Source: Dickeya solani IPO 2222 (GTDB taxonomy: Bacteria; Pseudomonadota; Gammaproteobacteria; Enterobacterales; Enterobacteriaceae). Taken from it: a stretch of 32,000 bases of DNA. Of this stretch, positions 1 to 26,735 are shown in pieces. The notes beneath the pieces are model-generated. The model saw only the letters and a program-made list of their open reading frames with translations. It ran no database searches and was not told the origin of the DNA. The DNA lies in assembly GCF_001644705.1 (NCBI RefSeq), contig NZ_CP015137.1, forward strand, positions 2,280,001 through 2,312,000. The letters run 5' to 3'. Positions within the stretch are counted from its first letter, which is position 1. The number at the start of each line of letters is the position of its first letter. Both the position numbers and the translations under genes were made by a program.

Positions 1-347
1 CCGGGGACGCGCCGCAGCAGGCGATGGTCGATGCCAATCAGATGCAGCAGATGTTCATCAACTTATTGAAAAACGCCGATGAAGCGATGGCGCCCGGGCA
101 GGGTGAAATCGTGCTGCGCTGGAAGGTGATTGCCCGGCAACTGCATATCGAGATTATCGACCAAGGCAAAGGGGTGGCGAATATCGAAAACCTGTTCGTG
201 CCGTTTTATACCACCAAGACACATGGCAGCGGCATCGGACTGATTCTGTGCCGGCAGATTGTCGAAGGCCATGACGGGCATCTGACGCTGGAGAACCGTA
301 AGGATGCAGAAGGTTGTGTCGTCAATATCTTCCTGCCGCTGGGATGA
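1..347 (+). CDS. vfmI: Sensor histidine kinase, C-terminal HATPase_c portion (5' end lies outside the window)
   Basis: The frame is open from the window edge. Motifs: N-box-like 'QMFINLLKNADEA', 'IDQGKG', and G2-like 'GSGIGLILCRQIVEGHDGHL'. Stop at 345-347. The symbol is tentative and comes from the position upstream of the PPTase in a vfm-like locus. Confidence 0.8.
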   Translation, partial: GDAPQQAMVDANQMQQMFINLLKNADEAMAPGQGEIVLRWKVIARQLHIEIIDQGKGVANIENLFVPFYTTKTHGSGIGLILCRQIVEGHDGHLTLENRKDAEGCVVNIFLPLG

Positions 348-1074
348 CCTGGCGGCGAGAACATGGCCGTATCCCCACTGTGTTGTAGTACCGCGTGCGC
401 AGCTGGCGTGCCCGGCAATCGTCGCTCAGGCTCGTCAGGCCTGCGGCATGTCGCCGGATGTGGCGTTGGCGTCCCGCCAACTGGCGGAAGGCATGCTGCG
501 TACCTTGCTGGCGCCGCTGTGTCAGCAAGAGGCCGCCGCATTACGCTTTGAGCGTAACCCGCATGGCAAACCGTTTTTGCCACAGCATCCGACAATTCAG
601 TTCAATCTATCCCACACTCATAGCGCCTTTGCTTTTGCGTTTGCGCGCCACAGCGCGGTGGGTGTGGATGTGGAAAGCTGTCAGGGTCATGTGGACCGTA
701 AGCGGTCAGTGGCCAGACGTTTCTTTCACCCTGACGAAATCCGCTGGCTGGATGCGTTTGATGACGTGCGATTCCTGCCGGCGTTCACCTGCTTGTGGAA
801 CCGCAAAGAGGCTTATATCAAAGCGCTGGGGTTAGGGTTGCACAAATCGCTGGCATCGTTCAGCTGCCTGGCCGACAGTCAGGGGGCTATTCGGGTGGCG
901 GATACCGGACAGATTAGCGATTGCCGGCTGGATGAAGCGTGGATTGCGGGGGAGCCGTCCGTCGCGCTCAGCTGCTGCCTTTTCCCCGCGAAATCGACCG
1001 AGCCGGATGCATGGCGCCTGCTGATACTGCGGGATGACGCGCCGGAAAACCGCGCATCGCTTCAGCAGCCGTGA
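304..1074 (+). CDS. vfmJ: Sfp/EntD-type 4'-phosphopantetheinyl transferase
   Basis: Motifs 'GKPFL', 'FNLSHTHSAFAFAFA', 'GVDVE' and 'WNRKEAYIKALGLG'. The start is uncertain: the ATG at 304 overlaps the kinase 3' end by 44 nt. The symbol is tentative. Confidence 0.8.
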   Translation: MQKVVSSISSCRWDDLAARTWPYPHCVVVPRAQLACPAIVAQARQACGMSPDVALASRQLAEGMLRTLLAPLCQQEAAALRFERNPHGKPFLPQHPTIQFNLSHTHSAFAFAFARHSAVGVDVESCQGHVDRKRSVARRFFHPDEIRWLDAFDDVRFLPAFTCLWNRKEAYIKALGLGLHKSLASFSCLADSQGAIRVADTGQISDCRLDEAWIAGEPSVALSCCLFPAKSTEPDAWRLLILRDDAPENRASLQQP

Positions 1075-1709
1075 TGGTCTATCAGGCTGGCCACGCCGTT
1101 GCTGGTATGAACCAGCGTATCCGGTGCTACTCTGACTCTGGCGCCGGTGGTGACGGTTCCACTCAGCTGTCGCACGTGGCATAACCGCGCGTCTACGCCC
1201 ATGGCGATGTTCACGACGGCTTCTTGCGCCGAAAAAGCCGGTTCATGGGTATTGAACGATGACCCCATCGCCAGCGACAGGTCGAGCTGACGCGTGTTGC
1301 CCGCGACATTGATCTCCGTGCCCATGCTGCCGTCAACCGTGAATGTGTCGGGCGAAACCGCACAAGCGGGAACGGCCATTTTGACGCCTGCCTGTGCCTT
1401 GATCGTATTAATCGGTGCGCCGATAGTGACCGTAATCGCCGCGCCGTGATCGCGCAGGATACTGTCATCGCTGGAATGGTTTTCGATTATCAGACTCTGT
1501 CCCTGAGGGCGGATGACCAGCTTCTCCAGAACATCCTGTCTGGCGCTGGCCTCCACGCGGTATCCATTACCGCAAACCAAAGTGACGCTCAGGCCACGGC
1601 TAACATCCAATGTCGTAAAGGAGGGCACATCCACGTTTTGCTGATTCGCCGGTGAACAAGCCACCGTCAATGGCAGCAGCACCAGCGCGGAACAAAGCAG
1701 CGCTTTCAT
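1062..1709 (-). CDS. Exported protein or probable lipoprotein with beta-helix-like repeats (DUF2807/GIN-domain-like)
   Basis: Signal peptide 'MKALLCSALVLLPLTVAC' followed by repetitive G-x-G beta-strand pattern. SD 'GGGAGAGAGG' lies upstream. Its 3' end overlaps the convergent PPTase gene by 13 nt. Confidence 0.65.
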   Translation of the reverse strand: MKALLCSALVLLPLTVACSPANQQNVDVPSFTTLDVSRGLSVTLVCGNGYRVEASARQDVLEKLVIRPQGQSLIIENHSSDDSILRDHGAAITVTIGAPINTIKAQAGVKMAVPACAVSPDTFTVDGSMGTEINVAGNTRQLDLSLAMGSSFNTHEPAFSAQEAVVNIAMGVDARLCHVRQLSGTVTTGARVRVAPDTLVHTSNGVASLIDHHGC

Positions 1710-1994
1710 TCCTCTCTCCCTTCTCCGTTGCTATCCCTGCCATGCCAGCCTGACGTCCCATATCAGGAGGGAACCCGCGGCCAGTTTATCCTTGTCTGGC
1801 CGATACCCGTCTGAATATTCATCCCTTGCTTCAGTCGAGGCGGTTCAGTTACATCCTTGTCTCTTATCGCCAGCAAGCCAGCGAAAGCTTTCCCTGATTG
1901 CTATTATGCATAGCGGAATTATCCATTTTTGTCTGAAATTGAGAACTGTTCTGATAAATGCGGCTAATAAATAGTGCGGCAAGATCGCGAAGGG

Positions 1995-2933
1995 TCAGAA
2001 CGGCGCGTCAGCGTGTCGGATTCGGCAACTGCCGATCCAGGCACCCAGACCGACGGACAGCATGACGTGGGGCTTGCCGGACTGAATGGCGGGCAACGCG
2101 GCTGGTAGCAACAGCAGCGGATCGACGGTGTAGCAGTGACCGATATTCGGCATCAGACCGAGTGCAATGTTTTCCAGCGGATGTTGATGACGGCGGGAAT
2201 AATTGAGCCAGCTTAACCGATTGACGTTGTGCGGTAAGAGATGGAGATGTGTCGGGTTGCCTGACTTTGTATTTTGTAACGCATCGGAAATCAGCTCATC
2301 ATGAGCTTGATAAAATGCTTTTTTGACGTGCTCGCTACCATGAATGCCTTCATGAAACTCTGGTCGTTGTCCAGTATAGACAGGCCCTATTTGGAAGCCG
2401 GATGGCTGATTTTCCAGCAGCAGTGCTGCGAAGGCATCACCAACTATAGTACAACCGGGAAAATATCGCTCCTGAATAGCAAATGCAGATAAGGTATCGC
2501 CGGCAATGATCGCCACCCGCTTCGCTCGTTGCTGCGACAGCAGCCGTTGAGCCAGCGCCAGCGCCCAAAACAGCGTGGCGCAGTTTTGCTGGTCGAGTTC
2601 GTAGCAGGGGGCATGATCGCGAATAAACGGATGTTCACGGCCAAGCTGGGTCAGCCAGGGTTCTCGCTCCGCCGCCTGCACCGGCATGCCGTGAGCGTAG
2701 ATCAGCACATCAGCCGGGCGCTCGGGGTGCGGCGACTGGCGCTGTAACTCGCTGAGCAGCCGGTGGAACACCGAGGCCAGCGGCACGTTGCTATCCAGCG
2801 CCGCCACCTGCCGAAAGCCGAACAGTTGCGAGAAGACCCGCGCTTCCGACGCGCTGGCGCCCGCGGCGAGAATAATATCACTGGCGTTCAGTCTCTGCTC
2901 AGGCACCCAAGTCACAAAGCGGGTCAGCCGCAC
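1995..2933 (-). CDS. KASIII (FabH)-like thiolase-fold enzyme, divergent
   Basis: Candidate Cys in 'QQNCATLFWAL', His in 'LLPHNVN', and a 'NIGHCYTVDP' block where FabH has 'GNTSAAS'. Paralogue of 5049-5972. Confidence 0.8.
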   Translation of the reverse strand: MRLTRFVTWVPEQRLNASDIILAAGASASEARVFSQLFGFRQVAALDSNVPLASVFHRLLSELQRQSPHPERPADVLIYAHGMPVQAAEREPWLTQLGREHPFIRDHAPCYELDQQNCATLFWALALAQRLLSQQRAKRVAIIAGDTLSAFAIQERYFPGCTIVGDAFAALLLENQPSGFQIGPVYTGQRPEFHEGIHGSEHVKKAFYQAHDELISDALQNTKSGNPTHLHLLPHNVNRLSWLNYSRRHQHPLENIALGLMPNIGHCYTVDPLLLLPAALPAIQSGKPHVMLSVGLGAWIGSCRIRHADAPF

Positions 2934-2970
2934 TATTATTTCTGCCTCTGCAATTATTCCTGTCCCTGCA

Positions 2971-3828
2971 TTATTCCAACCCCTGCAATGCGACTGCGCT
3001 GAGCGTGTCCTGATAATGAATCAGCAGCAGATAATCACGGCCTGGCTGGTAATTTTCCGCCAGCGTCACAAACGGCGCGGCGCACACCAGATGCGGATTG
3101 GCGGCGATACCGGTCAGCGCCGGCGGCAGCGCCGCCAGTAGCAGCGGTTCCGCCACCACGCATAGACGGTCTTGCCGCAGGGCAAAGCGCTGGCATAACT
3201 GGACCACGGTTTGCGCCAGGGTGTCGGCAGTGGGCTGCGGGTGGCGACAGAAACCCTGATAGCGCAGCGGCTGCTCATGGCAGCTGACGGAAAACAGGCA
3301 GGCGTTGTTTTCCGGGGCGAGCGATTCAAGCAGGGTGGAGTGATACGGCAGGCTGCTCTGGTCGGCGATCAGCAACAGCGAGTCATGGTCGTCTTCCTGC
3401 TGGCAATTGGCGATGCTGGAGAGCGCAAACAGCGCCGCATCCGGCCCGCGATCGCTGATGGTCAGCGCCAGGCAGGCCGGCAGCCTGAGCGATTCGATCA
3501 CATAGTTGATCACCGAACTGCCAAGGTGTAAATCCGGTGTCCAGTGCGCCATCAGCACACTGTCGATATGCGACAGATCGTTTCTGGCCCGATAAACGGG
3601 CAGCAACTGACCGATCATGTTGATGAACGAGGTCAGGTCGCTGGTCCGGCTGCCGCATTGCAGGTTGGTCATCCTCTCATGCCAGTCAAGACCATTGCTG
3701 GCGAAGAACCGGGTGGCGTAGCTGTGCCAGTAATACTCCTGCGCCGGGCTGATCGCCTGCCGCGGCATGCTGGCGGGCGACGCAAAGCGGCGGTGCAGTA
3801 TCGACCGTGGGTCAAGATACGTGGGCAC
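2971..3828 (-). CDS. Conserved unknown protein; possible catalytic-Cys-less KS-like protein (paralogue of 13212-14120)
   Basis: Shared blocks 'AHWTPD', 'SDRG..A.LFAL', 'LLIADQ' and 'CAAPFV' with 13212-14120. GTG start overlaps the upstream ACAD gene by 17 nt. Confidence 0.65.
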   Translation of the reverse strand: MPTYLDPRSILHRRFASPASMPRQAISPAQEYYWHSYATRFFASNGLDWHERMTNLQCGSRTSDLTSFINMIGQLLPVYRARNDLSHIDSVLMAHWTPDLHLGSSVINYVIESLRLPACLALTISDRGPDAALFALSSIANCQQEDDHDSLLLIADQSSLPYHSTLLESLAPENNACLFSVSCHEQPLRYQGFCRHPQPTADTLAQTVVQLCQRFALRQDRLCVVAEPLLLAALPPALTGIAANPHLVCAAPFVTLAENYQPGRDYLLLIHYQDTLSAVALQGLE

Positions 3829-4948
3829 AGACGCCTCCCCTGGCAGTGTAGCAACGGAAACTGTTCATCAGATGGATATTGGCGGTGCCTTCCATGTATT
3901 CGAACGCCAGCGCGTCGCGACAGCGACGGCGCAACGGCGCGTCTTCCAGCCACGCCTGCTCGCCCAGCAGATGCGGCATGCAGTGCGCCACCGTTTCCAC
4001 GAACAGGGTACAGCGTCGTTTCAACTGGCTGGTGAGGTGGTATTGCGGCCGACCGGACTGGTAACGCTCGGCGATTTCCGACAGCTGCTGTCGCAGCAGA
4101 TGATAAGTGCGCCACTGCTGGGCGCGCCAGCGTTGTTGTTCGGTGTTTAGCGCGGTGTCGTCCAGCACGCGCAGCAGCCCATAGGCGGTGCCGAGCGCCA
4201 TGGCGCCGACCATGGGGCGGTGGCGTTCGAACACCTGCCCCAACGCGGTCAGCCCCTGGTTCAGTCCTTTGCGGTCATAGCCCAGAATACGATCCGACGT
4301 GACCGGCAGCCCGTTGATCTCGATTTCCGTCAGGTTAGAGCCCTGCAGCCCGAACTGCTCAAGCGGCGTAATCGTCATATGAGAGGCGGCTTGTTCCGGC
4401 TCTACCATCACCAGCCGCTGGAGGTTGCCTTCACGGGCGAAGACCAGCCCAACGGACGCCAGTTGCGCGCCGCCGATAAATTTCTTGCGAGCGTGCAGTA
4501 CGTAGCCGTTATCGGCTGGCGTCAGTGAAGAGGTGATCGATTGCGTATCGGAGCCGACTTCAGGCTCGGTGACGGCAAAAAACGCCCAGCAAGGTGGCTG
4601 GTTAAAGCGGGAGAAGAAGAATGCCTGCTGCTCCGGCGTGCCCAATATCGTGACCGCTCGTGCCGACAGCGAGGCGCCGGGCAACATCATCAGACCGCTG
4701 GCGTCGAAGCGGCTAAGGTACTCCAACATGTCGATATGATCGCTATAGTGGCAGGCCTGATAGTCCCAACCCCGGAACGGAATGAATTTAGGCGGAATGC
4801 CAATATAGGCGATGGTATAAAGCAACTCATCCTCAAGACAGGATAACGCCCGGCTACGATCGGATTCTACCTGACTGGCCGCCTGCCGTAATTTTTCGCC
4901 CAGTGCATCCAATTCTTTTAATACATTACTGAACGTAAGAGCCTTCAT
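3812..4948 (-). CDS. Acyl-CoA (or acyl-carrier-protein) dehydrogenase family flavoenzyme
   Basis: 'FAVTEPEVGSD' and C-terminal 'FEYMEGTANI' (catalytic-Glu region). Start moved to the ATG at 4948 ('MKALTF'), which has SD 'AGGA' 7 nt upstream. Confidence 0.85.
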   Translation of the reverse strand: MKALTFSNVLKELDALGEKLRQAASQVESDRSRALSCLEDELLYTIAYIGIPPKFIPFRGWDYQACHYSDHIDMLEYLSRFDASGLMMLPGASLSARAVTILGTPEQQAFFFSRFNQPPCWAFFAVTEPEVGSDTQSITSSLTPADNGYVLHARKKFIGGAQLASVGLVFAREGNLQRLVMVEPEQAASHMTITPLEQFGLQGSNLTEIEINGLPVTSDRILGYDRKGLNQGLTALGQVFERHRPMVGAMALGTAYGLLRVLDDTALNTEQQRWRAQQWRTYHLLRQQLSEIAERYQSGRPQYHLTSQLKRRCTLFVETVAHCMPHLLGEQAWLEDAPLRRRCRDALAFEYMEGTANIHLMNSFRCYTARGGVCAHVS

Positions 4949-5048
4949 GTTCTGTCCTGTTAGTCGAGTCGCAAAAAATACCATTCGCACGGTAATTATG
5001 TACCTTATCGGGAATAATAGTGGTGTATTGCCCGATATTGCGTTTTGG

Positions 5049-5972: not shown

Positions 5973-6082
5973 AAGCGCACTCCTGGCGGTTAGCGGGGTG
6001 AAAAAGAGCGAACGGCGTGTCCGGCGTCATGGTATGGGGTGTTTCATGATATGTGGCGTTTCATAGCGGCGGCGCGACGGGG

Positions 6083-6595
6083 TTAGCGTGGGTAAAGCCG
6101 GCAGTAACGGTAGACGACCGGTGTAGCGTCGGCGCATGGACTGATGCGGCGCAGCGGGTCGCTCAGATACAGCACGGCGCTATCGTGGTCCAGCAGCGTA
6201 CCGGCCAAATCACGTTCGGCCTGTATCCGCCCCTGCGCTTTGATCCCCAGACTGTGATGAAAACCCGGCGCGGCATAGAGCAGGCTTTGCAGCAGCGGGG
6301 TGCGGAACTGGAGCGGCGCGCCGTGATACTCGTACAGCAGGATGCTGTTGGCATGGCTGGCGCAAAAATGGCGGCAGAGAGCGATGACGTTGGCGGCATG
6401 CAGGCCGAATGGGTCGCTGTGGACCGGCTCATGTAGAAACCAGGGAATATCGGGATCGGCATGATTGAGGGCAAACCAGGGAGACAACAGGGCATGCTGT
6501 TGCGCGGTTAACGGGGTCGCGCGGGTTTCCACCGCCAAACTGCCGGTTTCCTGCACTAGCGAGCGGCTAACGGGGGCCAGCGCCGGGTGTGCCAT
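6083..6595 (-). CDS. Hypothetical protein (170 aa), operon member
   Basis: The ATG lies 1 nt after the stop of the upstream ACAD gene (TAG-C-ATG). I recognised no family. Confidence 0.55.
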   Translation of the reverse strand: MAHPALAPVSRSLVQETGSLAVETRATPLTAQQHALLSPWFALNHADPDIPWFLHEPVHSDPFGLHAANVIALCRHFCASHANSILLYEYHGAPLQFRTPLLQSLLYAAPGFHHSLGIKAQGRIQAERDLAGTLLDHDSAVLYLSDPLRRISPCADATPVVYRYCRLYPR

Positions 6596-6596
6596 G

Positions 6597-8158: not shown

Positions 8159-8255
8159 GACTTTTCCCCCGTCAATACCGTTTGTATCAGACTACCGGTG
8201 ACAGCAGTTTTTTTTTATGCCTGCTTGCAGGTCGTACCGCTATTTCGGGGAAGTG

Positions 8256-9779: not shown

Positions 9780-11304
9780 AGCGTTTGCCTTTGTCGAGCG
9801 CCTGCCGGGTGACATGTTGGCGGTCCAGCTTGCTGTTGTGGTTGAGCGTGGCATCATCCACCGGGTACCAGAATTTGGGCACCATATAGAGCGGGAAGTA
9901 GCGGCGCAGATAAGCCGTCAGCGCCGGGAAAATATCCGTCTGGCCGGACAGGATAAACGCCTGCAATCCCTGCGGCGTGCCGTGCAACAGCCAGGGGGTG
10001 ACGATGGCGTCCTGTACCTGCGGGTGTTCGCGCAGCGCGTTTTCGATGTCGCTGAGGACGATGCGGTAGCCCTGAATTTTCAGTTCGCTGTCTTCCCGGC
10101 CATGAAAATAGAGCAGGTTATTTTGCAGCGAACCGATGTCGCCGGTGCGGTAGCTGCGCGTACCGTCGGGCTCGATGACGAAACGTGCCTGCTGGACGGG
10201 CGGTGCGTTCAGGTAGCCCTCGCCGACCGCTGGGCCGGCAATGACGATTTCCCCGCGTTCGCTGTTCGCCGGGGCATTGATGCGCAGTTCGACGCCGGGG
10301 CGTACATAGCCCAGCGGCAGCGGCGCGTCGTCATCGAGCATGGCGGGGATGATGTCGCAGGCGGTGACGGCGACCGTACACTCCGTCGGGCCGTAGGTAT
10401 TGACGATACGACAGCCGGGAAACGCCTGCCACAGGGCGCTGACGATTTCCTTCGTCAGCACTTCGCCGCAAAAGATAAAGGTGTTCAGCCGCGGCAGGTT
10501 GTCCTGACGGAACGTCCGATCTCTCAGATAATTACGAGTCAGCGCCGGAGTGCTGACCCAGGTTTGCACCCCGGCATCGGCATGACGGGCGATCATCTTG
10601 CGGGTATTGATGATGTCGCGGTAATCCAGCACCGAAAGCGGCTGACGATAATGCCACGCCAGCCACAGCTCGTACTGGGAGACGTCGAAGCAGTAGCGAA
10701 TGTTGCCGCTGATCGGGCCGGGGGCGGGAAACGCGTCGGCCGCCCAGCGAACAAAATGCGCCAGATTGGCATAGCTCACCCGAATGCCTTTGGGGGCGCC
10801 GGTGGTGCCGGAGGAAAACATGATGTAGGCCATGCCGCTGATCGTGCCCCGGCCGAACGCCAGCCCCATCTGGTGACAATGGTCGGTCAGTCGGGGAGCG
10901 AGCATATCACCTAATGCCGTTGACACCGTCAGTGCGGGAATGTCGATATCTGGTGCCGCCTGCCCGGTGGCGTTGAGCAACAGCCCGGCCTGGATGCTGT
11001 CGGCGATAAAGCGCAGGCGTTCGTCGCTGTTGTCGGTTTCCACCGGCGCCACCGGATGACCGGTCAGCAGGCAGGCCCACCAGGCGATCAGGCAGGTCGG
11101 ATGCTTGTGGCCGTACAGCAGCACCGGCGCGCGCTGGCGATACCCGCTGGCTTCATGATGCGCCTGCAACCGAGCCGCCAGCGCCAGCGCCCCCTGATAA
11201 AGCTGGTGATAGGTCAGGTCGCCTTCGGTGTGATGACAGGCGGGAGTGTGTACGCCGTCAAACCGGGCGAACACGGTGGTCAGGTACTGCCACGACGCGA
11301 TCAT
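9760..11304 (-). CDS. vfmO: Stand-alone amino-acid adenylation enzyme (DltA/NRPS A-domain-like)
   Basis: 'FSSGTTGAPKGI', 'YGPTECT', 'YRTGD', 'GREDSELKIQGYRIVLSDIE' and 'NSKLDRQ'. The ATG at 11304 forms an ATGA overlap with the carrier-protein stop. The symbol is tentative. Confidence 0.85.
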   Translation of the reverse strand: MIASWQYLTTVFARFDGVHTPACHHTEGDLTYHQLYQGALALAARLQAHHEASGYRQRAPVLLYGHKHPTCLIAWWACLLTGHPVAPVETDNSDERLRFIADSIQAGLLLNATGQAAPDIDIPALTVSTALGDMLAPRLTDHCHQMGLAFGRGTISGMAYIMFSSGTTGAPKGIRVSYANLAHFVRWAADAFPAPGPISGNIRYCFDVSQYELWLAWHYRQPLSVLDYRDIINTRKMIARHADAGVQTWVSTPALTRNYLRDRTFRQDNLPRLNTFIFCGEVLTKEIVSALWQAFPGCRIVNTYGPTECTVAVTACDIIPAMLDDDAPLPLGYVRPGVELRINAPANSERGEIVIAGPAVGEGYLNAPPVQQARFVIEPDGTRSYRTGDIGSLQNNLLYFHGREDSELKIQGYRIVLSDIENALREHPQVQDAIVTPWLLHGTPQGLQAFILSGQTDIFPALTAYLRRYFPLYMVPKFWYPVDDATLNHNSKLDRQHVTRQALDKGKRYVFVSS

Positions 11305-11609
11305 GCACAAGGGACACCGTGCTCCAGCTGCGAGTGAATGAAACGGCCGAGCGAGTCGATGGTGCTGAGCTGCTGGCTGTCCAGCGTTACCGGGTCGATG
11401 GATAAGCCTTCGATCATCTCTTCCAGATACATCATCAGCTCGATGAAAATGCCGCTCTCGAACCCTAAATCCCGCTCCAGATCGGTGTGCGGATGCAGTT
11501 CCGACAGGTCGTCGGTTTCCAGCACCATGCCGATCGCCGTGACGATCTTCTGGTAATAAAAGTCCGGGCGGTAGCCGGTGTTGGACGCGTAATCAGTATG
11601 CAATGACAT
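11301..11609 (-). CDS. Small carrier protein (ACP/PCP-like, 102 aa)
   Basis: 'DLGFESGIFIELMMYLEE' resembles the LGxDS phosphopantetheine attachment helix. The size and the position between adenylating enzymes fit. Confidence 0.65.
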   Translation of the reverse strand: MSLHTDYASNTGYRPDFYYQKIVTAIGMVLETDDLSELHPHTDLERDLGFESGIFIELMMYLEEMIEGLSIDPVTLDSQQLSTIDSLGRFIHSQLEHGVPCA

Positions 11610-11614
11610 CGACG

Positions 11615-13198
11615 TTACTCCATCAGACCGGGTTGCGGGCAGACCTGAGCCGTTGCGCCCGCCGTCAGTTGTTCCTGCAGCAGTGAACGGTTGATTTTGC
11701 CGTTAGGGTTCAGCGGCAGTTGCGACATCAACCGGAAGCGGTGCGGCACCATGTGCGACTCCATCTGGGTTTTGCTCCAGCGCGACAGCGCCTTCTCGTT
11801 GAGATCGCCGCGGGTAACCACGCAGGCGATGATTTCGTCGCCGTAAATCGGGTGCGGTACGCCGAGTACCACCGCCTGCACGACTTGCGGGTGGCGGTTG
11901 AGCACGGCTTCCACCTCTTTCGGCGCCACTTTTTCGCCGCAGCTTTTCAGCATTTCGTCCCGACGGCCGACGAAATAGAGCAACCCTTGTTCGTCCAGCC
12001 GACAGATGTCGCCGGTGTACAGCACCCGCTCGCCCGGCAGCAGGCCGGGGCGCAGCTTTTCGGCGCTCTTCTCTTCATTGCGCCAGTAGCCGCACATGAC
12101 GGTCGCACCGCGGATCACCAGTTCGCCGGTGGCGTCGCGGGTATGGCGCTGGCCGTTGTCGTCCACCACCCACAGTTCGGTGTTGGGAATGGCGATACCG
12201 ACGCTTTGCGGGTGGGTGGCGAGGTATTCCGGCGGCAGGTAAGTGCAGCGGTGGCACTCGGTCAGCCCGTACATCGAGTAGATATGCGCCTGTGGAAAGA
12301 TGGTGTGCAATTGATCGATATCGCCGGCATGCAGCGCGGCGGCGGTGTTGGTCACGGTGCGGATGGCGCCGAAGTTATAGCGGGACGCCAGCGGCGCGAT
12401 CAGGCGTAGCATGGTCGGCACGATCGGCAGTACGGTGGCGCGCAGGGTGACCATGCGCTGCAATGACAGCAGCGGACGCCGGAAATCCGGTTCTACGATC
12501 AGCGTACACTGCGCCAGCGCCGACATGATCACCTGATACAGACCGTAATCGAAGCTCATCGGGATCATCGACATGATGCGGTCATCACTGCGCAGTTGTA
12601 GGTAACCGGCCACCGAACCGGCGGCAGTAATCATATTGCGCCGGCTCAGCATCACCCCTTTAGGATGGCCGGTCGAGCCGGAGGTATAGATGATGCAGGC
12701 CAGATCGAGGTCGATGCCCGTCGACTGCCGGTCGCGCTCGACGGAGATGCGATACGGTTCTTCCACCAGCGCGGCCGCCACGTCGTTGCTGAAAAAGACC
12801 CGGGTGTGGCGATTGTATTGTTGCCAGTGCTCGCCCGCCTGAGCGATGCCGATTTCGTCTTTCAGGGCGCGATCGGCAATCAGCAACCGGCAGCCGGCGT
12901 TGTCCACCAGCCAGCTCAGTTTGCCGGCTTTGGTGTCCGGGTTCAGCGGAATAAAGATCGCCCCCAGATACTGTAGCGCCCAGAAATAGAGCACGAACGT
13001 CAGTGAGTTCGGCAGGCAGACGATCACCCGGTCGCCTTTTTCCACCCCGTTTTCCCGCAGGTGGTCCGCCAATTGCCGGGCCTGCAGGCGCAGCATAAAC
13101 CAACTGACCTCGCGGTCGGTGTCGATGACCGCGGTTTTGTTGGCGGCTTCTTTGGCTGCCCGGTCGAGCCAGGCGGTCAGGTGGGTAATGTTCGTCAT
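11615..13198 (-). CDS. Acyl-CoA synthetase / fatty-acyl-AMP ligase family adenylate-forming enzyme
   Basis: 'YTSGSTGHPKGV', 'YGLTECH', 'YTGD', 'GRRDEMLKSCGEKVAPKEVE' and 'NPNGKINR'. Start moved to the ATG at 13198 ('MTNITHL'), which has SD 'AAGGA'. Confidence 0.9.
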   Translation of the reverse strand: MTNITHLTAWLDRAAKEAANKTAVIDTDREVSWFMLRLQARQLADHLRENGVEKGDRVIVCLPNSLTFVLYFWALQYLGAIFIPLNPDTKAGKLSWLVDNAGCRLLIADRALKDEIGIAQAGEHWQQYNRHTRVFFSNDVAAALVEEPYRISVERDRQSTGIDLDLACIIYTSGSTGHPKGVMLSRRNMITAAGSVAGYLQLRSDDRIMSMIPMSFDYGLYQVIMSALAQCTLIVEPDFRRPLLSLQRMVTLRATVLPIVPTMLRLIAPLASRYNFGAIRTVTNTAAALHAGDIDQLHTIFPQAHIYSMYGLTECHRCTYLPPEYLATHPQSVGIAIPNTELWVVDDNGQRHTRDATGELVIRGATVMCGYWRNEEKSAEKLRPGLLPGERVLYTGDICRLDEQGLLYFVGRRDEMLKSCGEKVAPKEVEAVLNRHPQVVQAVVLGVPHPIYGDEIIACVVTRGDLNEKALSRWSKTQMESHMVPHRFRLMSQLPLNPNGKINRSLLQEQLTAGATAQVCPQPGLME

Positions 13199-13211
13199 GG
13201 CGTATCCTTCA

Positions 13212-14120
13212 TCAGGCAGGAGGGCGGGTGAAAGGCCCATCGTGGCAAGGCTGGTAGTGCAACACACAGGCGGTAAGGTGACGCGATTCCGGCACCGCCA
13301 GCAGATAACGCCGGCCCGGCTGCGCATGGTGTTTCAGGTATACGAACGGGGCGGCGCACAGTAACGACTCCGCCACGGCCGTCGGTTGAAGTTCGGGAAA
13401 CGCGCCCTGCAGCGCCGTCATCAACGACGGGGAGCCCAGCAACGTCAGTGTGTCCGTCGTGGGCAGGCGCGAGAGCAACTGCCGCAGGGTTTCTATCGGG
13501 GCGCCGTTTTCGGCGTAAGGCTGGCGATAATACCCTTCAAATATCAGCCCGCTGGCCTGATGGGGCGGGCGTTTTTCTATCCGCATCAGGCAACAGTTCT
13601 TTTGGGGACGCAACTGCGCCAACCGCTCGCTGGGGTAAGGCGCCACGTCCTGATCGGCGATCATCAGCAACGCTTCGCGCCGGTTGTCATCGCTGGCCAG
13701 ATAGTCGTCGATGGCGTGCAGCGCAAACAGCGGCGCCGCCAGCCCGCGATCCGACACCGACAGCCCGAACGCCTGTCGGGCGTTGCAGGCGTGGATCAGC
13801 GCGTTGGATACCGCACAGCCGAGGTCGCTGTCCGGCGTCCAGTGGGCGAACATCACCAGATCAAGCTGCTGCAACGCATGACGCGCCTGCAATTCGGGCA
13901 GCAGCGCCTGCATCATCGCGGTAAAGGTGTGACGGCCGCTGTTAAGCCAGCGGGTCAGCAGGGCGTCGTCCGGCTCCAGCTTGTCATCGTGAGAACGGAA
14001 AAAGGCGCGCAGGTAATCCGCCATCAATGCCTGACTGGGATGCGGGGCCAGCAATGCGGCCTCGCTTTCGGGCGCAAAAGCGCGCCATACCAGGTCATCC
14101 GGCTGGATACACAACGTCAT
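13212..14120 (-). CDS. Conserved unknown protein; possible catalytic-Cys-less KS-like protein (paralogue of 2971-3828)
   Basis: The ATG at 14120 forms an ATGA overlap with the decarboxylase stop, so the 421-aa ORF-track call is over-extended. Contains the block 'SVSDRGLAAPLFALHAIDDYL'. Confidence 0.65.
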   Translation of the reverse strand: MTLCIQPDDLVWRAFAPESEAALLAPHPSQALMADYLRAFFRSHDDKLEPDDALLTRWLNSGRHTFTAMMQALLPELQARHALQQLDLVMFAHWTPDSDLGCAVSNALIHACNARQAFGLSVSDRGLAAPLFALHAIDDYLASDDNRREALLMIADQDVAPYPSERLAQLRPQKNCCLMRIEKRPPHQASGLIFEGYYRQPYAENGAPIETLRQLLSRLPTTDTLTLLGSPSLMTALQGAFPELQPTAVAESLLCAAPFVYLKHHAQPGRRYLLAVPESRHLTACVLHYQPCHDGPFTRPPA

Positions 14121-15442
14121 GGCGTATCCCCGCAGAGGTCGACCGGCTGTTGCCGGGCCAGCAGTTGTTCCGTGGTTTCCGGCTGGCGTATCAGCGTGAG
14201 GCGTCGACCGTCCACCATCACTTCCACCGGGTAACCGAAACTGAGGAACGAACCCGGCGACGCGGTTAGCCCGTAAGCACCGGAGTGGGTGATGCCGATC
14301 AGATCGTCGACCTCCAGCGTCGGCAACTGTACGTTGTCGCCCAGCAGATCGGTGGGCGTGCAAAGTGGCCCGCTGACCTGATAAGGCTGCAACGGCCGCC
14401 CCTGGTTGTCGCCCAGCCGCAATAACGGAAAGTTTTTGCGCAGCATGCTGTTCAGGCCAGCCGCCGCACTGTGACAATTGGCACCGCCATCGCAGACGGC
14501 GAACGTTTTCCCGCCGGCGGTTTTCAGGGTGTTGACCCGGGTGACGAACAGGCCGGCTTCCGCCACCAGATAACGCCCCAGTTCGATGATGATTTGCGTG
14601 TCGGCGGCCTGGCGACGGAAGTCCGCCACGATTGACGCGATGGCCTCGCCCAGCGCCGGCAGATCCAACGGCGCTTCTTTCGGAAAATAGGGGACGCCGA
14701 AACCGCCGCCGACATCGACGAAATCCAGCGTTAATTGGTACGTATCGCGCAGATCTAGCGCCAGTTGCAGGATATTACGGGTGTTGTCGGCGATGGCCTG
14801 AGCGTTAAGGATCCGGGTGCCCAGATAAACATGAAAACCGCGCAGGGAAACGGAGGGCCAACGGTGCAGGCTGGTCAGCACGGTATGCAGGGTATCCAGC
14901 GTCATGCCGAACTGGGTGGGTTTGCCGCTCATCACCAGCCGGGCGTGCTCGCTGCTGAAATCAGGGTTGATGCGTAGCGCCACCGTCTGCACGGTATTGG
15001 CCTGCGCGGCCAGCCGGTTGAGGTTATCCAGCTCCGCTACCGACTCCACCACTACTGCCCGAATACCGCAGTCAATGGCGAATTTCAGCGCAGGCAGGGA
15101 TTTTCCCGGCCCGACATACAGGATGTGCTGCGGCGAGACGCCCGCCGCCAGCGCGGTTTTCAGCTCGGCGGGCGAGCAGACCTCACACCCTGCTCCTTGT
15201 TCCCTCAGCGCTTTGACCACCGAAAGATTGGGATTGGCTTTCAGAGAATAATAAATCGCGGTTCCGGTTGGCAGTTGCTGGCGGAGTTGCTGAAGCTGGC
15301 GACGTAACTGGCGGGCGCTGTAAACATAGAAAGGCGTGTCGATGCGGTCGGCAATATCGGCAACAGATACTTCTTCTACATAGCCGTTGGCGAACAGCGA
15401 GCCTGCATCCGATTGGGAAAGGGGGTGAGCGGGGTCAGCCAT
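14117..15442 (-). CDS. PLP-dependent decarboxylase, Orn/DAP/Arg decarboxylase fold (LysA-like)
   Basis: 'YYSLKANP' (PLP lysine), 'DVGGGFGVPY', 'ELGRYLVAEAG' and 'CDGGAN'. The start overlaps the upstream carrier-protein gene by 8 nt. Confidence 0.9.
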   Translation of the reverse strand: MADPAHPLSQSDAGSLFANGYVEEVSVADIADRIDTPFYVYSARQLRRQLQQLRQQLPTGTAIYYSLKANPNLSVVKALREQGAGCEVCSPAELKTALAAGVSPQHILYVGPGKSLPALKFAIDCGIRAVVVESVAELDNLNRLAAQANTVQTVALRINPDFSSEHARLVMSGKPTQFGMTLDTLHTVLTSLHRWPSVSLRGFHVYLGTRILNAQAIADNTRNILQLALDLRDTYQLTLDFVDVGGGFGVPYFPKEAPLDLPALGEAIASIVADFRRQAADTQIIIELGRYLVAEAGLFVTRVNTLKTAGGKTFAVCDGGANCHSAAAGLNSMLRKNFPLLRLGDNQGRPLQPYQVSGPLCTPTDLLGDNVQLPTLEVDDLIGITHSGAYGLTASPGSFLSFGYPVEVMVDGRRLTLIRQPETTEQLLARQQPVDLCGDTP

Positions 15443-15746
15443 GATGAAGCCGCTCGCGCAGGAAACGCGTCAGACTGGTCAAATTCTGGAAGGCATCAAA
15501 AACGCGGTCGTCCGTCAGGTCGAACAGATCGCCGTTTAGGTTGTAGGCCGCTTCGCAGTGGTCGCTGAGTACGGCAATCAGAGTGACGATATTGATAGAA
15601 TCCAGTCGCCCCTCTTCGCCGAACAGTGGCGCTCCCTGAAAGATCTCGGCGATACGGCCGTTATCGACGCCAATCGCGGTGAGTTTGTCGCGCAGGAGGG
15701 TATACAACGTGTCATCATCATGATGAGTAATTACCGGATAATCCAT
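15435..15746 (-). CDS. Small carrier protein (ACP/PCP-like, 103 aa); first gene of the minus-strand operon
   Basis: 'GRLDSINIVTLIAVL' is an attachment-Ser motif. Start moved to the ATG at 15746 ('MDYPVI'), which has a strong SD 'AAGGGGAG'. Confidence 0.65.
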   Translation of the reverse strand: MDYPVITHHDDDTLYTLLRDKLTAIGVDNGRIAEIFQGAPLFGEEGRLDSINIVTLIAVLSDHCEAAYNLNGDLFDLTDDRVFDAFQNLTSLTRFLRERLHHG

Positions 15747-15880
15747 TCTACTCCCCTTATCTGTCTCTCTGACGGGAGTATAACCAGCGTTATTCAGGCG
15801 TTTTGTTTGAAATTGCATGCCAGCCGATGCGGGAGGACCAATATTGTCAGATCGGCGGTAAAATGGGCATAGTGTCTTCT

Positions 15881-23478: not shown

Positions 23479-23506
23479 AACACCTTGTTGATTTACTCGT
23501 ATTAAT

Positions 23507-26725: not shown

Positions 26726-26735
26726 TAATGAAATG

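What the first reader, a model, noticed from the sequence alone, without database searches (positions are those of the whole stretch)
1..15818. Carrier-protein-dependent biosynthetic locus built only from stand-alone enzymes, linked to a sensor kinase and adjacent to expR/expI (Vfm-type quorum-sensing locus)
Seen in the sequence: a kinase 3' end and an Sfp-type PPTase face a minus-strand gene chain. In order it runs carrier protein, PLP decarboxylase, unknown, acyl-AMP ligase, carrier protein, A-enzyme, A-enzyme, VOC protein, ACAD, unknown, KASIII-like, ACAD, unknown, KASIII-like. The chain is stitched together by start/stop overlaps: ATGA at 14117-14120 and 11301-11304, GTGA at 7727-7730, 8 nt at 15435-15442, 20 nt at 9760-9779, 17 nt at 3812-3828, and TAG-C-ATG at 6595-6599. 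I recognise no condensation domain (no HHxxxDG), no thioesterase and no modular PKS/NRPS protein. Chain assembly must therefore use non-canonical catalysts, and the KASIII-like enzymes are candidates. From memory, this content and the neighbourhood to expI/expR fit the vfm cluster of Dickeya, a second quorum-sensing system controlling virulence whose signal molecule has not been chemically identified. If that is right the locus itself is known, but its chemistry is the open question.
Basis: partly seen in the sequence, partly recalled or inferred. Interest (0 to 1): 0.7.

Follow-up and report, generated by a model that had tools for sequence, protein, structure and literature searches.

The report
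Dickeya Vfm quorum-sensing biosynthesis operon
This stretch is the already-published Vfm quorum-sensing gene cluster of the potato pathogen Dickeya solani, next to its classical expR/expI pair; the locus is known, but the signal it makes is still unidentified.

Summary
Bases 1-15818 hold the 3' end of vfmI (sensor kinase), vfmJ (Sfp-type PPTase) and vfmX. They also hold the 14-gene minus-strand operon vfmY-vfmK...vfmW, followed by expR/expI. Every protein tested is an exact match to Dickeya solani entries. The VfmO and VfmP specificity codes (DVYVICTVAK and DMMFFGACVK) equal the published vfmO2/vfmP2 variants, which places the window in Vfm genetic group III. All seven start/stop junctions are as stated. 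No condensation motif or thioesterase motif was found.

- VfmK is closest to BtrK, a decarboxylase that acts on a carrier-protein-bound amino acid.
- The "unknown" VfmV, and by paralogy VfmL, is predicted to have a thiolase/KASIII fold without catalytic residues. VfmS may be a half-thiolase fold, on a weaker model.
- VfmT and VfmW carry Cys-His-His where FabH has Cys-His-Asn.
- Syntenic vfm-like operons occur in Pseudomonas, Rahnella, Lonsdalea, Xenorhabdus and Vibrio.

The most likely mechanism is a stand-alone thiotemplate pathway: carrier-bound decarboxylation, DltA-like amino-acid loading, then PqsBC-like dead-partner/KASIII pairs. This is inferred, not shown. A July 2026 paper still calls the signal uncharacterised. 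Novelty: already known. Interest: moderate.

The parts
1..347 (+). 3' end of vfmI, the sensor histidine kinase (HATPase_c domain)
   Evidence: Pfam HATPase_c, E 2.5e-20. In an assembly that holds the identical VfmP, the same gene is 439 aa and is followed upstream by the sigma54 response regulator vfmH.
304..1074 (+). vfmJ, Sfp-type 4'-phosphopantetheinyl transferase
   Evidence: Pfam ACPS, E 9e-17, plus AASDHPPT_N. NCBIfam HetI/AcpT-like hits lie below the cut-offs. The public gene call is 252 aa.
1062..1709 (-). vfmX, a DUF2807/GIN-domain protein with a lipoprotein-like N-terminus; reported dispensable for signalling
   Evidence: Pfam DUF2807, E 3e-11. Exact match to D. solani ANE75573.1. 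A vfmX null mutant keeps Vfm activity (PMC9306890). Conserved at the operon end in all related loci.
1995..2933 (-). vfmW, a KASIII-like condensing enzyme with Cys-His-His at the FabH triad positions
   Evidence: Pfam ACP_syn_III. PDB sequence hits CorB and MxnB-type ketosynthases, E 2e-4. Residues at the triad positions. Named oxoacyl-ACP synthase VfmW, with polymorphism linked to vfmP, in PMC9306890.
2971..3828 (-). vfmV, a thiolase/KASIII-fold protein that lacks the catalytic Cys, His and Asn (putative non-catalytic partner of VfmW)
   Evidence: No Pfam, NCBIfam or PDB sequence hit. AlphaFold2 model with pLDDT 85.5 and pTM 0.87. Foldseek against PDB gives probability 1.0 and E about 1e-11 to AbyA1, BioZ and FabH. 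Triad positions. Always immediately upstream of vfmW in related loci.
3812..4990 (-). vfmU, an acyl-CoA-dehydrogenase-like flavoenzyme (the public call starts at ATG 4948, 378 aa)
   Evidence: Pfam Acyl-CoA_dh_M and Acyl-CoA_dh_1. 27% identical to VfmR, with a shared ...FEY(T/M)EGT... C-terminal motif. Alternative start.
5049..5972 (-). vfmT, a KASIII-like condensing enzyme with Cys-His-His
   Evidence: Pfam ACP_syn_III_C, E 6e-22. FabH PDB hits align PHNVN with PHQAN and GHC with GNT. Triad table.
6083..6595 (-). vfmS, a 170-aa protein of unknown function, possibly a half-thiolase fold
   Evidence: No Pfam or NCBIfam hit. Profile search of PDB finds nothing significant. AlphaFold2 model is only pLDDT 70.7. 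Best Foldseek hits are FabH, HMG-CoA synthase and CerJ, E 3.5e-4, TMq 0.4-0.48. No profile similarity to VfmV/VfmL.
6597..7730 (-). vfmR, an acyl-CoA-dehydrogenase-like flavoenzyme
   Evidence: Pfam ACAD M and C domains. PDB hits are generic ACADs at E 3e-21 and L-prolyl-PCP dehydrogenase 6af6 at E 6e-16. NCBIfam PigA/RedW hits lie below the cut-offs.
7727..8158 (-). vfmQ, a VOC-superfamily protein (Glyoxalase_4, methylmalonyl-CoA-epimerase-like)
   Evidence: Pfam Glyoxalase_4, E 1e-12. NCBIfam methylmalonyl-CoA epimerase, 40 bits, below the cut-off.
8256..9779 (-). vfmP, a stand-alone DltA-like adenylating enzyme, variant vfmP2
   Evidence: Pfam AMP-binding. NCBIfam DltA subfamily, 330 bits. 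PDB DltA 3dhv, E 3e-72. Code DMMFFGACVK equals vfmP2. Exact match to D. solani ANE75580.1.
9760..11304 (-). vfmO, a stand-alone DltA-like adenylating enzyme, variant vfmO2
   Evidence: Pfam AMP-binding. NCBIfam DltA subfamily, 326 bits. Code DVYVICTVAK equals vfmO2. 31% identical to VfmP.
11301..11609 (-). vfmN, a stand-alone carrier protein
   Evidence: Pfam PP-binding, E 2e-6. Source names it 'acyl carrier protein [Dickeya solani]'.
11615..13198 (-). vfmM, an adenylating (ANL) enzyme that is probably amino-acid activating (527 aa from ATG 13198)
   Evidence: Pfam AMP-binding plus AMP-binding_C. Best NCBIfam hit is TIGR03098, the exosortase-A-associated ligase that pairs with decarboxylase TIGR03099, below the cut-off. 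Best PDB hits are the LgrA module-2 A domain at E 7e-82, 3wvn/3wv4 at E 2e-66, and beta-aminoacyl-ACP synthetases.
13212..14120 (-). vfmL, a paralogue of vfmV (thiolase fold by inference, no catalytic residues)
   Evidence: 34% identity to VfmV, E 7e-34. No Pfam hit. Homologues found only in Dickeya and Musicola by the word-based search. In Rahnella its homologue sits next to an extra KASIII gene.
14117..15442 (-). vfmK, a fold-III PLP decarboxylase closest to BtrK (acts on a carrier-protein-tethered amino acid)
   Evidence: PDB BtrK 7ru7/2j66 at E 5e-82 (279 bits), against 190 bits for the best diaminopimelate decarboxylase. Best NCBIfam hit is TIGR03099 at 368 bits.
15435..15746 (-). vfmY, a small carrier protein (103 aa) and first gene of the operon
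   Evidence: No Pfam hit. Weak ACP hit 9ls6 at E 0.088, with the GxxLDS motif in register. hhalign against the VfmN family gives E 0.013, end to end. UniRef names are 'Carrier domain-containing protein' and 'Acyl carrier protein'. Shine-Dalgarno sequence and start.
16465..17217 (+). expR, LuxR-type AHL receptor (outside the finding's coordinates, but part of its claim)
   Evidence: Pfam Autoind_bind, E 1e-37, plus GerE. The public call is 250 aa.
17183..17839 (-). expI, LuxI-type AHL synthase, convergent with expR and overlapping it
   Evidence: Pfam Autoind_synth, E 7e-90.

Best explanation
This is the biosynthetic arm of the Vfm quorum-sensing locus of Dickeya solani, Vfm genetic group III. 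It comprises the operon vfmY-K-L-M-N-O-P-Q-R-S-T-U-V-W, plus vfmX, vfmJ and the 3' end of vfmI, and it abuts expR/expI. It makes the still-unidentified Vfm signal, which published work says is sensed through VfmI/VfmH.

Proposed route, with each step marked as shown or inferred:
1. VfmJ converts the two small carrier proteins VfmY and VfmN to their holo forms. Inferred from domains.
2. VfmM adenylates an amino acid, most plausibly an acidic one through its side-chain carboxylate, and loads it on a carrier protein. VfmK then removes the alpha-carboxyl while the substrate is still tethered, giving a beta-alanyl- or GABA-type thioester. Inferred from VfmK's closest relative BtrK and from the published BtrJ/I/K, VinN/L/O, FlvN/L/O and CtaD/E/F cassettes.
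3. The DltA-like enzymes VfmO and VfmP each activate a small amino acid. Their pockets set the strain specificity of the signal. This is shown genetically and by biosensor assays in the literature.
4. Units are joined without condensation domains by two KASIII-type enzymes, VfmT and VfmW, which carry a conserved Cys-His-His. Each probably works as a heterodimer with a catalytically dead thiolase-fold partner: VfmV with VfmW, and VfmL or VfmS with VfmT. The model for this arrangement is PqsBC of the Pseudomonas quinolone signal pathway. Inferred.
5. The two ACAD-like flavoenzymes VfmR and VfmU and the VOC protein VfmQ tailor carrier-bound intermediates by desaturation, oxidation or epimerisation. 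Inferred.
6. Release needs no thioesterase. It probably occurs by intramolecular cyclisation of an amino-keto thioester. This step is speculative.
For: Identity of the locus:
- Exact protein matches to D. solani, and shared 90% clusters with D. dadantii 3937 vfm proteins.
- The same gene order in an assembly that carries the identical VfmP, including vfmH next to vfmI.
- VfmO/VfmP codes equal vfmO2/vfmP2, which is group III.
- Published naming and transcription units, and adjacency to the AHL genes.

Step 2:
- VfmK against BtrK gives E 5e-82 and 279 bits, against 190 bits for the best DAP decarboxylase.
- The best NCBIfam hits for VfmK and VfmM are the paired exosortase-associated decarboxylase and ligase families TIGR03099 and TIGR03098.
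- vfmY and vfmK overlap by 8 nt.
- VfmM hits 3wvn/3wv4 (VinN by my recollection) and beta-aminoacyl-ACP synthetases.
- Precedents are described in PMC11350588 and PMC11284099.

Step 3:
- DltA-like hits.
- Asp235 and Lys517 are retained.
- Biosensor specificity follows the vfmO/vfmP variant (PMC9306890).

Step 4:
- The VfmV model has pLDDT 85.5 and a thiolase fold with Foldseek probability 1.0.
- VfmL is its paralogue.
- Neither has Cys, His or Asn at the FabH triad positions, whereas VfmT, VfmW and all of the roughly 35 homologues aligned have Cys-His-His.
- V lies directly upstream of W in every related locus.
- In Rahnella the VfmL homologue sits next to an extra KASIII gene.
- PqsBC precedent: PqsC lacks the Asn and PqsB lacks all three residues (PMC4807248).
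- vfmW polymorphism tracks vfmP.

Absence of condensation and thioesterase domains.
Against: - No product is known, and no enzyme of this operon has been assayed. Steps 2 and 4-6 rest on homology and gene context alone.
- VfmV and VfmW have no detectable sequence similarity to PqsB or PqsC. The heterodimer idea is therefore an analogy and was not tested.
- The VfmS model is weak (pLDDT 70.7), and VfmS has no profile similarity to VfmV/VfmL.
- The carrier-protein assignment of VfmY is statistically weak.
- Which carrier protein serves which adenylating enzyme is unknown.
- VfmM's substrate cannot be read from its sequence, and its best NCBIfam names are acyl-CoA ligases.
- Part of the pathway (vfmAZBCD) lies outside the window and was not examined.
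- Related clusters in other genera carry an alpha/beta hydrolase, a P450 and a luciferase-like monooxygenase that Dickeya lacks. Release and tailoring may therefore differ, or may use enzymes encoded elsewhere.
Confidence: 0.85

Rival explanations
1. The peptide-type bonds are made by the adenylating enzymes themselves. VfmO and VfmP act like VinM or BtrJ, activating a small amino acid and transferring it directly to the free amine of the carrier-bound omega-amino acid made by VfmM and VfmK. The KASIII-type proteins then serve only for a later extension or ring closure.
For: [quoted passage not shown] It works in the same kind of cassette (A enzyme + ACP + PLP decarboxylase) (PMC11284099). The Vfm operon has that cassette, two further A enzymes predicted to take small amino acids, and no condensation domain. 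There are only two carrier proteins for three adenylating enzymes.
Against: VfmO and VfmP resemble DltA (E about 3e-72) far more than any other stand-alone A enzyme in PDB, and DltA loads a carrier protein. This model gives no role to four or five thiolase-fold proteins or to two ACADs. The link between vfmW and vfmP polymorphism suggests that a KASIII enzyme handles the VfmP-derived unit directly.
Confidence: 0.3
2. The KASIII-like enzymes VfmT and VfmW are acyltransferases that form C-N or C-O bonds, as CerJ and ChlB3 do, rather than Claisen condensing enzymes. On this view they replace NRPS condensation domains directly, which is.
For: There is no condensation domain. CerJ, ChlB3 and DpsC-type KASIII-like acyltransferases appear among the sequence and fold neighbours. 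The literature regards the product as a non-ribosomal peptide.
Against: Both enzymes keep Cys and His and add a second His. From my own knowledge, that is the triad of decarboxylating KAS I/II enzymes and not of the KASIII-like acyltransferases. VfmW's only PDB sequence hits besides FabH are the C-C-forming ketosynthases CorB and MxnB. Neither argument is decisive.
Confidence: 0.2
3. VfmL, VfmV and VfmS are not inert partners. They are enzymes with a new active site built on the thiolase scaffold, for example a cyclase, a decarboxylase or a release catalyst.
For: The VfmV/VfmL family has its own invariant polar residues across 40 sequences at 31-95% identity: AHWTPD, Arg127, Gln157, Tyr162 and Ser164. 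The operon lacks an obvious release enzyme. The family is small and unannotated, with 100 clusters among 1.84 billion representatives and no Pfam hits.
Against: Conserved residues are also expected at a heterodimer interface or a shared substrate tunnel, as in PqsB. No catalytic motif is recognisable.
Confidence: 0.2
4. The locus is an ordinary secondary-metabolite cluster unrelated to Vfm signalling, or it is not the vfm locus at all.
For: None was found. Database names such as 'diaminopimelate decarboxylase' and 'D-alanine--poly(phosphoribitol) ligase' could suggest housekeeping roles if read alone.
Against: Exact identity to D. solani proteins and membership of the same clusters as D. dadantii 3937 vfm genes. 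Published signatures match. Mutants in vfmK and other vfm genes lose virulence and signalling according to the literature.
Confidence: 0.02

Closest known systems
Vfm quorum-sensing cluster of Dickeya (vfmA-vfmZ; Nasser et al. 2013; Hugouvieux-Cotte-Pattat et al. 2022, PMC9306890)
   Same: It is this locus. The genes and their order are the same, the proteins are identical to D. solani entries, the vfmO2/vfmP2 signatures match, and expI/expR lie next door.
   Different: Nothing differs. The window covers only vfmI (3' end) through vfmY. vfmA-H lie beyond the left edge.
Carrier-protein-tethered amino-acid decarboxylation cassettes: BtrI/BtrJ/BtrK (butirosin), VinL/VinN/VinO (vicenistatin), FlvL/N/O, CtaE/D/F (closthioamide)
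   Same: A stand-alone carrier protein, an adenylating enzyme and a fold-III PLP decarboxylase are encoded together. VfmK's best solved relative is BtrK (E 5e-82).
   Different: The loader is an ANL enzyme, as in Vin and Flv, not the ATP-grasp BtrJ. The substrate is unknown. The downstream partners (KASIII pairs, ACADs) are unlike those of the aminoglycoside or macrolactam pathways.
PqsBC, the heterodimeric FabH-like condensing enzyme of the Pseudomonas quinolone signal pathway (PMC4807248)
   Same: A FabH-like catalytic subunit without the canonical Asn is encoded next to a shorter thiolase-fold protein (about 280 aa) that lacks all three triad residues. Both systems make a quorum-sensing signal.
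   Different: There is no detectable sequence similarity. VfmT and VfmW have His where PqsC has Val. Vfm has two catalytic subunits and two or three dead partners. The substrates are probably carrier-bound aminoacyl units, not anthranilate-derived 2-ABA and octanoyl-CoA. The heterodimer was not demonstrated.
Type II (stand-alone) NRPS systems such as DltA/DltC and PltF/PltL/PltE or PigI/PigG/PigA
   Same: Free-standing A enzymes with the Asp235/Lys517 code, free-standing carrier proteins, ACAD-like flavoenzymes in the same operon, and a dedicated Sfp-type PPTase.
   Different: There is no condensation domain, no downstream modular synthetase and no thioesterase. The ACADs are only distantly related to the prolyl-carrier dehydrogenases (E 1e-16 against 1e-21 for generic ACADs).
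KASIII-like head-to-head condensing enzymes that make small signals or pyrones (CorB/MxnB, DarB/StlD, PpyS)
   Same: Weak sequence hits of VfmW to CorB and MxnB, and of VfmT to DarB and StlD models. All are stand-alone KASIII scaffolds that join two thioester-bound chains.
   Different: The hits are marginal (E 1e-4). Those enzymes keep Cys-His-Asn and act as homodimers.

Membership tests
Dickeya vfm quorum-sensing locus | Orthology to the vfm genes of D. dadantii 3937 or D. solani | tested here: met
   Ten of ten and then eight of ten window proteins are exact matches to deposited Dickeya proteins. The clusters also hold 3937 proteins ADN00594, 595, 598, 600 and 602.
Dickeya vfm quorum-sensing locus | Gene order vfmI-vfmJ facing vfmX and vfmW...vfmK-vfmY | tested here: met
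   Unit names come from PMC7912708 and bioRxiv 10.1101/2023.09.17.558112. The locus-tag spacing between expI and vfmI in strain 3937 (18 genes) equals the gene count in the window.
Dickeya vfm quorum-sensing locus | VfmO/VfmP specificity signatures equal to a published variant | tested here: met
   DVYVICTVAK equals vfmO2 and DMMFFGACVK equals vfmP2, which is group III, the group of D. solani IPO 2222T (against Table 1).
Dickeya vfm quorum-sensing locus | Adjacent to the expI/expR AHL genes | tested here: met
   Pfam hits at 16276-17839. Adjacency is stated in PMC8860905.
Dickeya vfm quorum-sensing locus | Remaining units vfmAZBCD, vfmE and vfmFGH are present | not testable with these tools
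   They lie beyond the left end of the window. Only vfmH was seen, next to vfmI, in locus L019, which carries the identical VfmP.
Dickeya vfm quorum-sensing locus | Produces an extracellular signal sensed by VfmI/VfmH | not testable with these tools
   Known from the literature only.
Carrier-tethered decarboxylation cassette (BtrIJK / VinLNO type) | Fold-III PLP decarboxylase closer to BtrK than to free-substrate decarboxylases | tested here: met
   BtrK at 279 bits against 190 bits for the best diaminopimelate decarboxylase.
Carrier-tethered decarboxylation cassette (BtrIJK / VinLNO type) | Dedicated stand-alone carrier protein encoded alongside | tested here: inconclusive
   VfmY overlaps vfmK by 8 nt and has the LDS motif. 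The statistics are weak, however (E 0.088, E 0.013), and there is no Pfam hit. UniRef names it a carrier domain protein. VfmN is a clear PP-binding protein.
Carrier-tethered decarboxylation cassette (BtrIJK / VinLNO type) | Adenylating enzyme that loads an acidic amino acid by its side-chain carboxylate | tested here: inconclusive
   VfmM is an ANL enzyme whose PDB hits include 3wvn/3wv4 and beta-aminoacyl-ACP synthetases, and its best NCBIfam hit is TIGR03098. The substrate cannot be deduced.
PqsBC-type heterodimeric FabH-like enzyme | Catalytic subunit with a non-canonical triad (Asn missing) | tested here: met
   VfmT and VfmW have Cys-His-His, conserved in all of the roughly 35 homologues aligned. 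The alignments agree.
PqsBC-type heterodimeric FabH-like enzyme | Adjacent thiolase-fold partner that lacks all triad residues | tested here: met
   VfmV model and fold search. Triad positions. There is no invariant Cys, and no invariant His or Asn in the C-terminal half where the FabH His and Asn lie. The V-W adjacency is conserved. For VfmL this holds by paralogy only.
PqsBC-type heterodimeric FabH-like enzyme | Sequence homology to PqsB/PqsC | tested here: not met
   VfmV has no PDB sequence hit at E up to 10. No PqsC entry appears among VfmW's three PDB hits. The claim is therefore that Vfm may work like PqsBC, not that it is a member of that family.
PqsBC-type heterodimeric FabH-like enzyme | Physical heterodimer | not testable with these tools
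   No multimer prediction or experiment was available.
Type II NRPS | Stand-alone A enzymes and carrier proteins with a dedicated PPTase | tested here: met
Type II NRPS | Condensation domain for peptide-bond formation | tested here: not met
   No Pfam condensation hit and no HHxxxDG in six frames.

The most novel reading that the evidence does not exclude
The Vfm operon encodes a condensation-domain-free assembly logic that has not been described. A carrier-tethered decarboxylated amino acid and two DltA-activated amino acids would be joined by two PqsBC-like pairs, each made of a dead thiolase-fold partner and a Cys-His-His KASIII enzyme. The same machinery, with its own kinase, sigma54 regulator and ABC transporter, is spread through Pseudomonas, Rahnella, Lonsdalea, Xenorhabdus and Vibrio. 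Vfm-type molecules would then be a widespread class of Gram-negative signals, not a Dickeya speciality.
Probability: 0.3. Interest if true: 0.75.

Novelty: already known. Interest (0 to 1): 0.4.

Why it matters
Vfm is the dominant virulence-controlling quorum-sensing system of the soft-rot pathogens Dickeya. Its signal has resisted identification since 2013, which blocks rational quorum-quenching.

The locus itself is not new. What this analysis adds is a set of concrete, testable assignments:
- a BtrK-type decarboxylation on a carrier protein;
- dead thiolase-fold partners for two unusual Cys-His-His KASIII enzymes;
- amino-acid loaders that set strain specificity.

It also shows that close syntenic relatives exist in easily handled genera such as Pseudomonas and Rahnella. 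Those organisms could offer better producers for isolating the molecule.

Tried and rejected
- Megablast of 1-16000 against the plasmid collection found only short AMP-binding matches. These later led to the Rahnella megaplasmid locus.
- A Pfam, NCBIfam and PDB sequence search of VfmL, VfmS and VfmV found nothing. VfmV and VfmS were therefore modelled; VfmL rests on its paralogy to VfmV.
The 5-sequence alignment gave only a moderate model, so the half-thiolase idea for VfmS stays tentative. hhalign of VfmS against VfmV/VfmL was not significant.
- I tried to link the VfmV/VfmL family to annotated ketosynthases by sequence. The exhaustive profile search found only 100 clusters, and ten distant members had no Pfam hit. 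The fold assignment therefore rests on the model alone.
- The Rfam scan of the whole window found nothing.
- Promoter and terminator consensus scans around the operon ends were no better than shuffles and were not used.
- Literature searches for an identified Vfm signal found none.
- I considered and rejected two readings. VfmK is not a housekeeping diaminopimelate decarboxylase, because BtrK is clearly the better match and the gene sits in this operon. VfmO and VfmP are not true DltA cell-wall enzymes, because of the Gram-negative host, the operon context and the published data.

Full report
**What is in the sequence.**

The window's left half carries, on the plus strand, the C-terminal ATPase domain of a histidine kinase (..347) and an Sfp/ACPS-type phosphopantetheinyl transferase (304-1074). 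Facing them on the minus strand is a DUF2807 gene (1062-1709), followed by a tight chain of 14 genes running from 15746/15818 down to 1995.

Pfam assigns the chain as follows:

| Position in chain | Assignment |
|---|---|
| 1 | small protein, no hit |
| 2 | Orn/DAP/Arg-type PLP decarboxylase |
| 3 | no hit |
| 4 | AMP-binding |
| 5 | PP-binding |
| 6, 7 | AMP-binding (two genes) |
| 8 | Glyoxalase_4 |
| 9 | acyl-CoA dehydrogenase |
| 10 | no hit |
| 11 | KASIII C-terminal domain |
| 12 | acyl-CoA dehydrogenase |
| 13 | no hit |
| 14 | KASIII |

The remaining gaps are between -20 and +110 nt. No HHxxxDG motif occurs in any frame of 1-15818, and no GxSxG occurs in any of the proteins. A LuxR-type gene and a LuxI-type gene follow at 16.3-17.8 kb.

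There are two small corrections. The first carrier protein most likely starts at 15746 (103 aa, behind a GGGGAG Shine-Dalgarno sequence), not at 15818.

**What it is.**

Every protein I looked up is an exact match to deposited Dickeya solani proteins. Examples are ANE75573 to ANE75586, several of which are labelled strain IPO 2222. They sit in the same 90%-identity clusters as D. dadantii 3937 proteins ADN00594, 595, 598, 600 and 602. An assembly carrying the identical VfmP has the same gene order and shows the sigma54 response regulator next to the kinase.

The literature names the units vfmY-vfmK...vfmW, vfmX and vfmFGHIJ (PMC7912708; bioRxiv 10.1101/2023.09.17.558112). It also states that the AHL and vfm clusters are adjacent (PMC8860905). 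In strain 3937, expI and vfmI are 18 locus tags apart, which equals the gene count in the window.

The ten-residue specificity codes I extracted are DVYVICTVAK for VfmO and DMMFFGACVK for VfmP. These are the published vfmO2 and vfmP2 variants, which define Vfm genetic group III, the group of D. solani IPO 2222T (Table 1 of PMC9306890).

A paper of July 2026 still calls the signal 'still-uncharacterized' (PMC13395407). I found no paper or preprint that reports its structure.

**What the parts say about mechanism.**

(a) Decarboxylation on a carrier protein.
- VfmK's closest solved relative is BtrK, the L-glutamyl-[BtrI ACP] decarboxylase. It scores E 5e-82 and 279 bits, against 190 bits for the best diaminopimelate decarboxylase.
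- The best NCBIfam hits for VfmK and VfmM are a pair of families that occur together, TIGR03099 and TIGR03098. Both scores are below the cut-offs.
- VfmM's best PDB hits are NRPS adenylation domains, entries 3wvn/3wv4 (VinN by my recollection; the file calls them 'Non-ribosomal peptide synthetase'), and beta-aminoacyl-ACP synthetases.
- Published cassettes of this type load Asp, Glu or 3-methyl-Asp onto an ACP through the side-chain carboxylate and then decarboxylate the tethered amino acid. They are BtrJ/I/K, CtaD/E/F, FlvN/L/O and VinN/L/O (PMC11350588; PMC11284099).
- vfmY overlaps vfmK by 8 nt and carries a GxxLDS carrier-protein motif. Its statistical support is weak, but UniRef names it a carrier domain protein.
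- I infer that VfmM, a carrier protein and VfmK together make a beta-alanyl- or GABA-type thioester.

(b) Amino-acid loading.
- VfmO and VfmP are DltA-like and 31% identical to each other.
- Published biosensor work shows that their variants determine which strains can talk to each other.

(c) The 'unknown' proteins.
- VfmL and VfmV are paralogues (34% identity).
- An AlphaFold2 model of VfmV, built on 40 homologues, has pLDDT 85.5 and pTM 0.87.
- Foldseek places the model in the thiolase/KASIII fold with probability 1.0 and E about 1e-11. The hits include AbyA1, BioZ, FabH and type III PKSs, with 732 hits at E<=0.001.
- The family has no invariant Cys, and no invariant His or Asn in the C-terminal half where FabH's His244 and Asn274 lie.
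- VfmS gave only a moderate model (pLDDT 70.7). Its best fold hits are again FabH, HMG-CoA synthase and CerJ, covering about half of those proteins. That assignment is tentative, and profile comparison with VfmV/VfmL is not significant.

(d) The KASIII enzymes.
- VfmT and VfmW, and all of the roughly 35 homologues aligned from the related loci, carry Cys-His-His (motifs PHN[VI]N and GHC). FabH and the other aligned PDB ketosynthases have Cys-His-Asn.

(e) Internal duplication.
- The operon is duplicated within itself. ACAD, small or dead thiolase-fold protein and KASIII occur twice, as R-S-T and U-V-W. The A enzymes, carrier proteins, ACADs and KASIIIs are each paralogous pairs.

**Most likely mechanism.**

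The best precedent for a FabH-like subunit without the canonical Asn, encoded beside a shorter thiolase-fold protein with none of the triad residues, is PqsBC. PqsBC is the heterodimeric condensing enzyme of the Pseudomonas quinolone signal pathway (PMC4807248).

I therefore propose that VfmV/VfmW, and VfmL or VfmS with VfmT, form such pairs. The pairs would join carrier-bound amino-acid-derived units by Claisen-type chemistry. The two ACADs and the VOC protein would tailor the bound intermediates. Release would occur by cyclisation, since no thioesterase is present.

Supporting context:
- vfmV lies immediately upstream of vfmW in every related locus.
- In Rahnella the VfmL homologue sits next to an additional KASIII gene that Dickeya lacks.
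- vfmW polymorphism tracks vfmP.

None of this is shown experimentally. VfmV and VfmW have no sequence similarity to PqsB or PqsC, so the claim is 'works like', not 'is a member of'.

The rivals are:
- amide formation by the A enzymes themselves, as VinM does;
- KASIII-like acyltransferase chemistry, as in CerJ and ChlB3;
- a new catalytic role for the dead-looking proteins.

My confidence is about 0.97 for the identity of the locus. It is about 0.6 for carrier-tethered decarboxylation by VfmK and about 0.4 for the heterodimer model. It is lower for the tailoring and release steps.

**Distribution.**

Reviews call the cluster unique to Dickeya (PMC8860905; PMC10616651). A 2023 preprint adds Prodigiosinella.

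Starting from VfmV, I found syntenic operons of the form M-N-O-P-(Q)-R-(S)-T-U-V-W-...-X. Protein identity to the window is 29-62%. The carriers are:
- Pseudomonas maumuensis, P. citri and several other Pseudomonas strains;
- Rahnella;
- Lonsdalea;
- Xenorhabdus vietnamensis;
- a Vibrio strain.

In Pseudomonas the locus also has the convergent PPTase, kinase, sigma54 regulator and MacB-type ABC transporter genes.

The Rahnella aceris megaplasmid p2 carries the whole set, from HlyD-F-G-H-I-J to Y-K-L. These relatives have extra genes: an alpha/beta hydrolase, a P450, a luciferase-like monooxygenase and a WelO5-like oxygenase. Whether they act as quorum-sensing systems is unknown.

**Verdict.**

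The finding is real and correctly interpreted, and it concerns an already known locus. Its remaining interest lies in the unsolved chemistry. The assignments above give specific experiments for that chemistry.

Noticed in passing
L001 (Pseudomonas maumuensis CP077077.1), L002 (Vibrio sp. VNB-15), L005-L018 (Rahnella, Pseudomonas, Lonsdalea, Xenorhabdus vietnamensis, a Pseudomonadota MAG), L020 (Rahnella aceris plasmid p2, NZ_CP093330.1 135027-175291): Syntenic vfm-like operons occur well outside Dickeya. In Pseudomonas and Rahnella they include the PPTase, kinase, sigma54 regulator and ABC transporter genes. The reviews I read describe Vfm as Dickeya-specific.
   Followed up: partly
L001 7054-7875, 11789-14150; L002 11806-13155, 13833-14606; L020 8442-10797, 14711-15442, 22577-23482: The non-Dickeya clusters carry extra genes that are absent from the window. 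These are an alpha/beta hydrolase between S and T, a P450 and a MupA-type luciferase-like monooxygenase after W, a WelO5-like oxygenase in Vibrio, and a third KASIII (Cys-Tyr-His) next to the VfmL homologue in Rahnella.
   Followed up: partly
window 22440-29193: This is a low-GC stretch (29-33% GC at 23-27 kb, against 56-63% in the vfm operon). It holds a T6SS PAAR protein (22440-22856), five ORFs without any Pfam hit, and an 806-aa protein annotated as glycoside hydrolase family 19 (26773-29193). It looks like a T6SS effector/immunity-type island and is conserved in D. dadantii 3937.
   Followed up: partly
window 18398-21085 (+): This 895-aa ORF has no Pfam or NCBIfam hit here. GenBank and UniRef name it 'fibronectin type III domain-containing protein' or 'cellulose 1,4-beta-cellobiosidase'. 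Its function is unclear.
   Followed up: no
window 16000-18000: The expR/expI pair has much lower GC (41-42%) than the adjacent vfm operon. The two genes converge and overlap by 35 nt (17183-17217).
   Followed up: no
window 14117-15442, 13212-14120, 8256-11304, 2971-3828: Public names for these genes look misleading. VfmK is called 'diaminopimelate decarboxylase', VfmO and VfmP 'D-alanine--poly(phosphoribitol) ligase', and VfmL in one UniRef entry '(S)-2-hydroxy-acid oxidase'. VfmV is annotated with two different starts (265 or 285 aa). Conservation of the N-terminus across genera favours 285 aa.
   Followed up: partly
window 6083-7730: In the 90%-identity protein collection, the exact 170-aa VfmS sequence sits in a cluster whose representative and most members are the 377-aa ACAD VfmR, encoded 1 nt upstream (TAG-C-ATG). 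This is probably a clustering artefact, possibly arising through a fused R-S gene call in some assembly. I did not resolve it.
   Followed up: no
L004 (D. undicola 2B12) compared with the window: Against this group IV strain, VfmP (68%) and VfmW (80%) are clearly more diverged than their neighbours (88-95%). This reproduces the published linked polymorphism of vfmP and vfmW (PMC9306890).
   Followed up: yes
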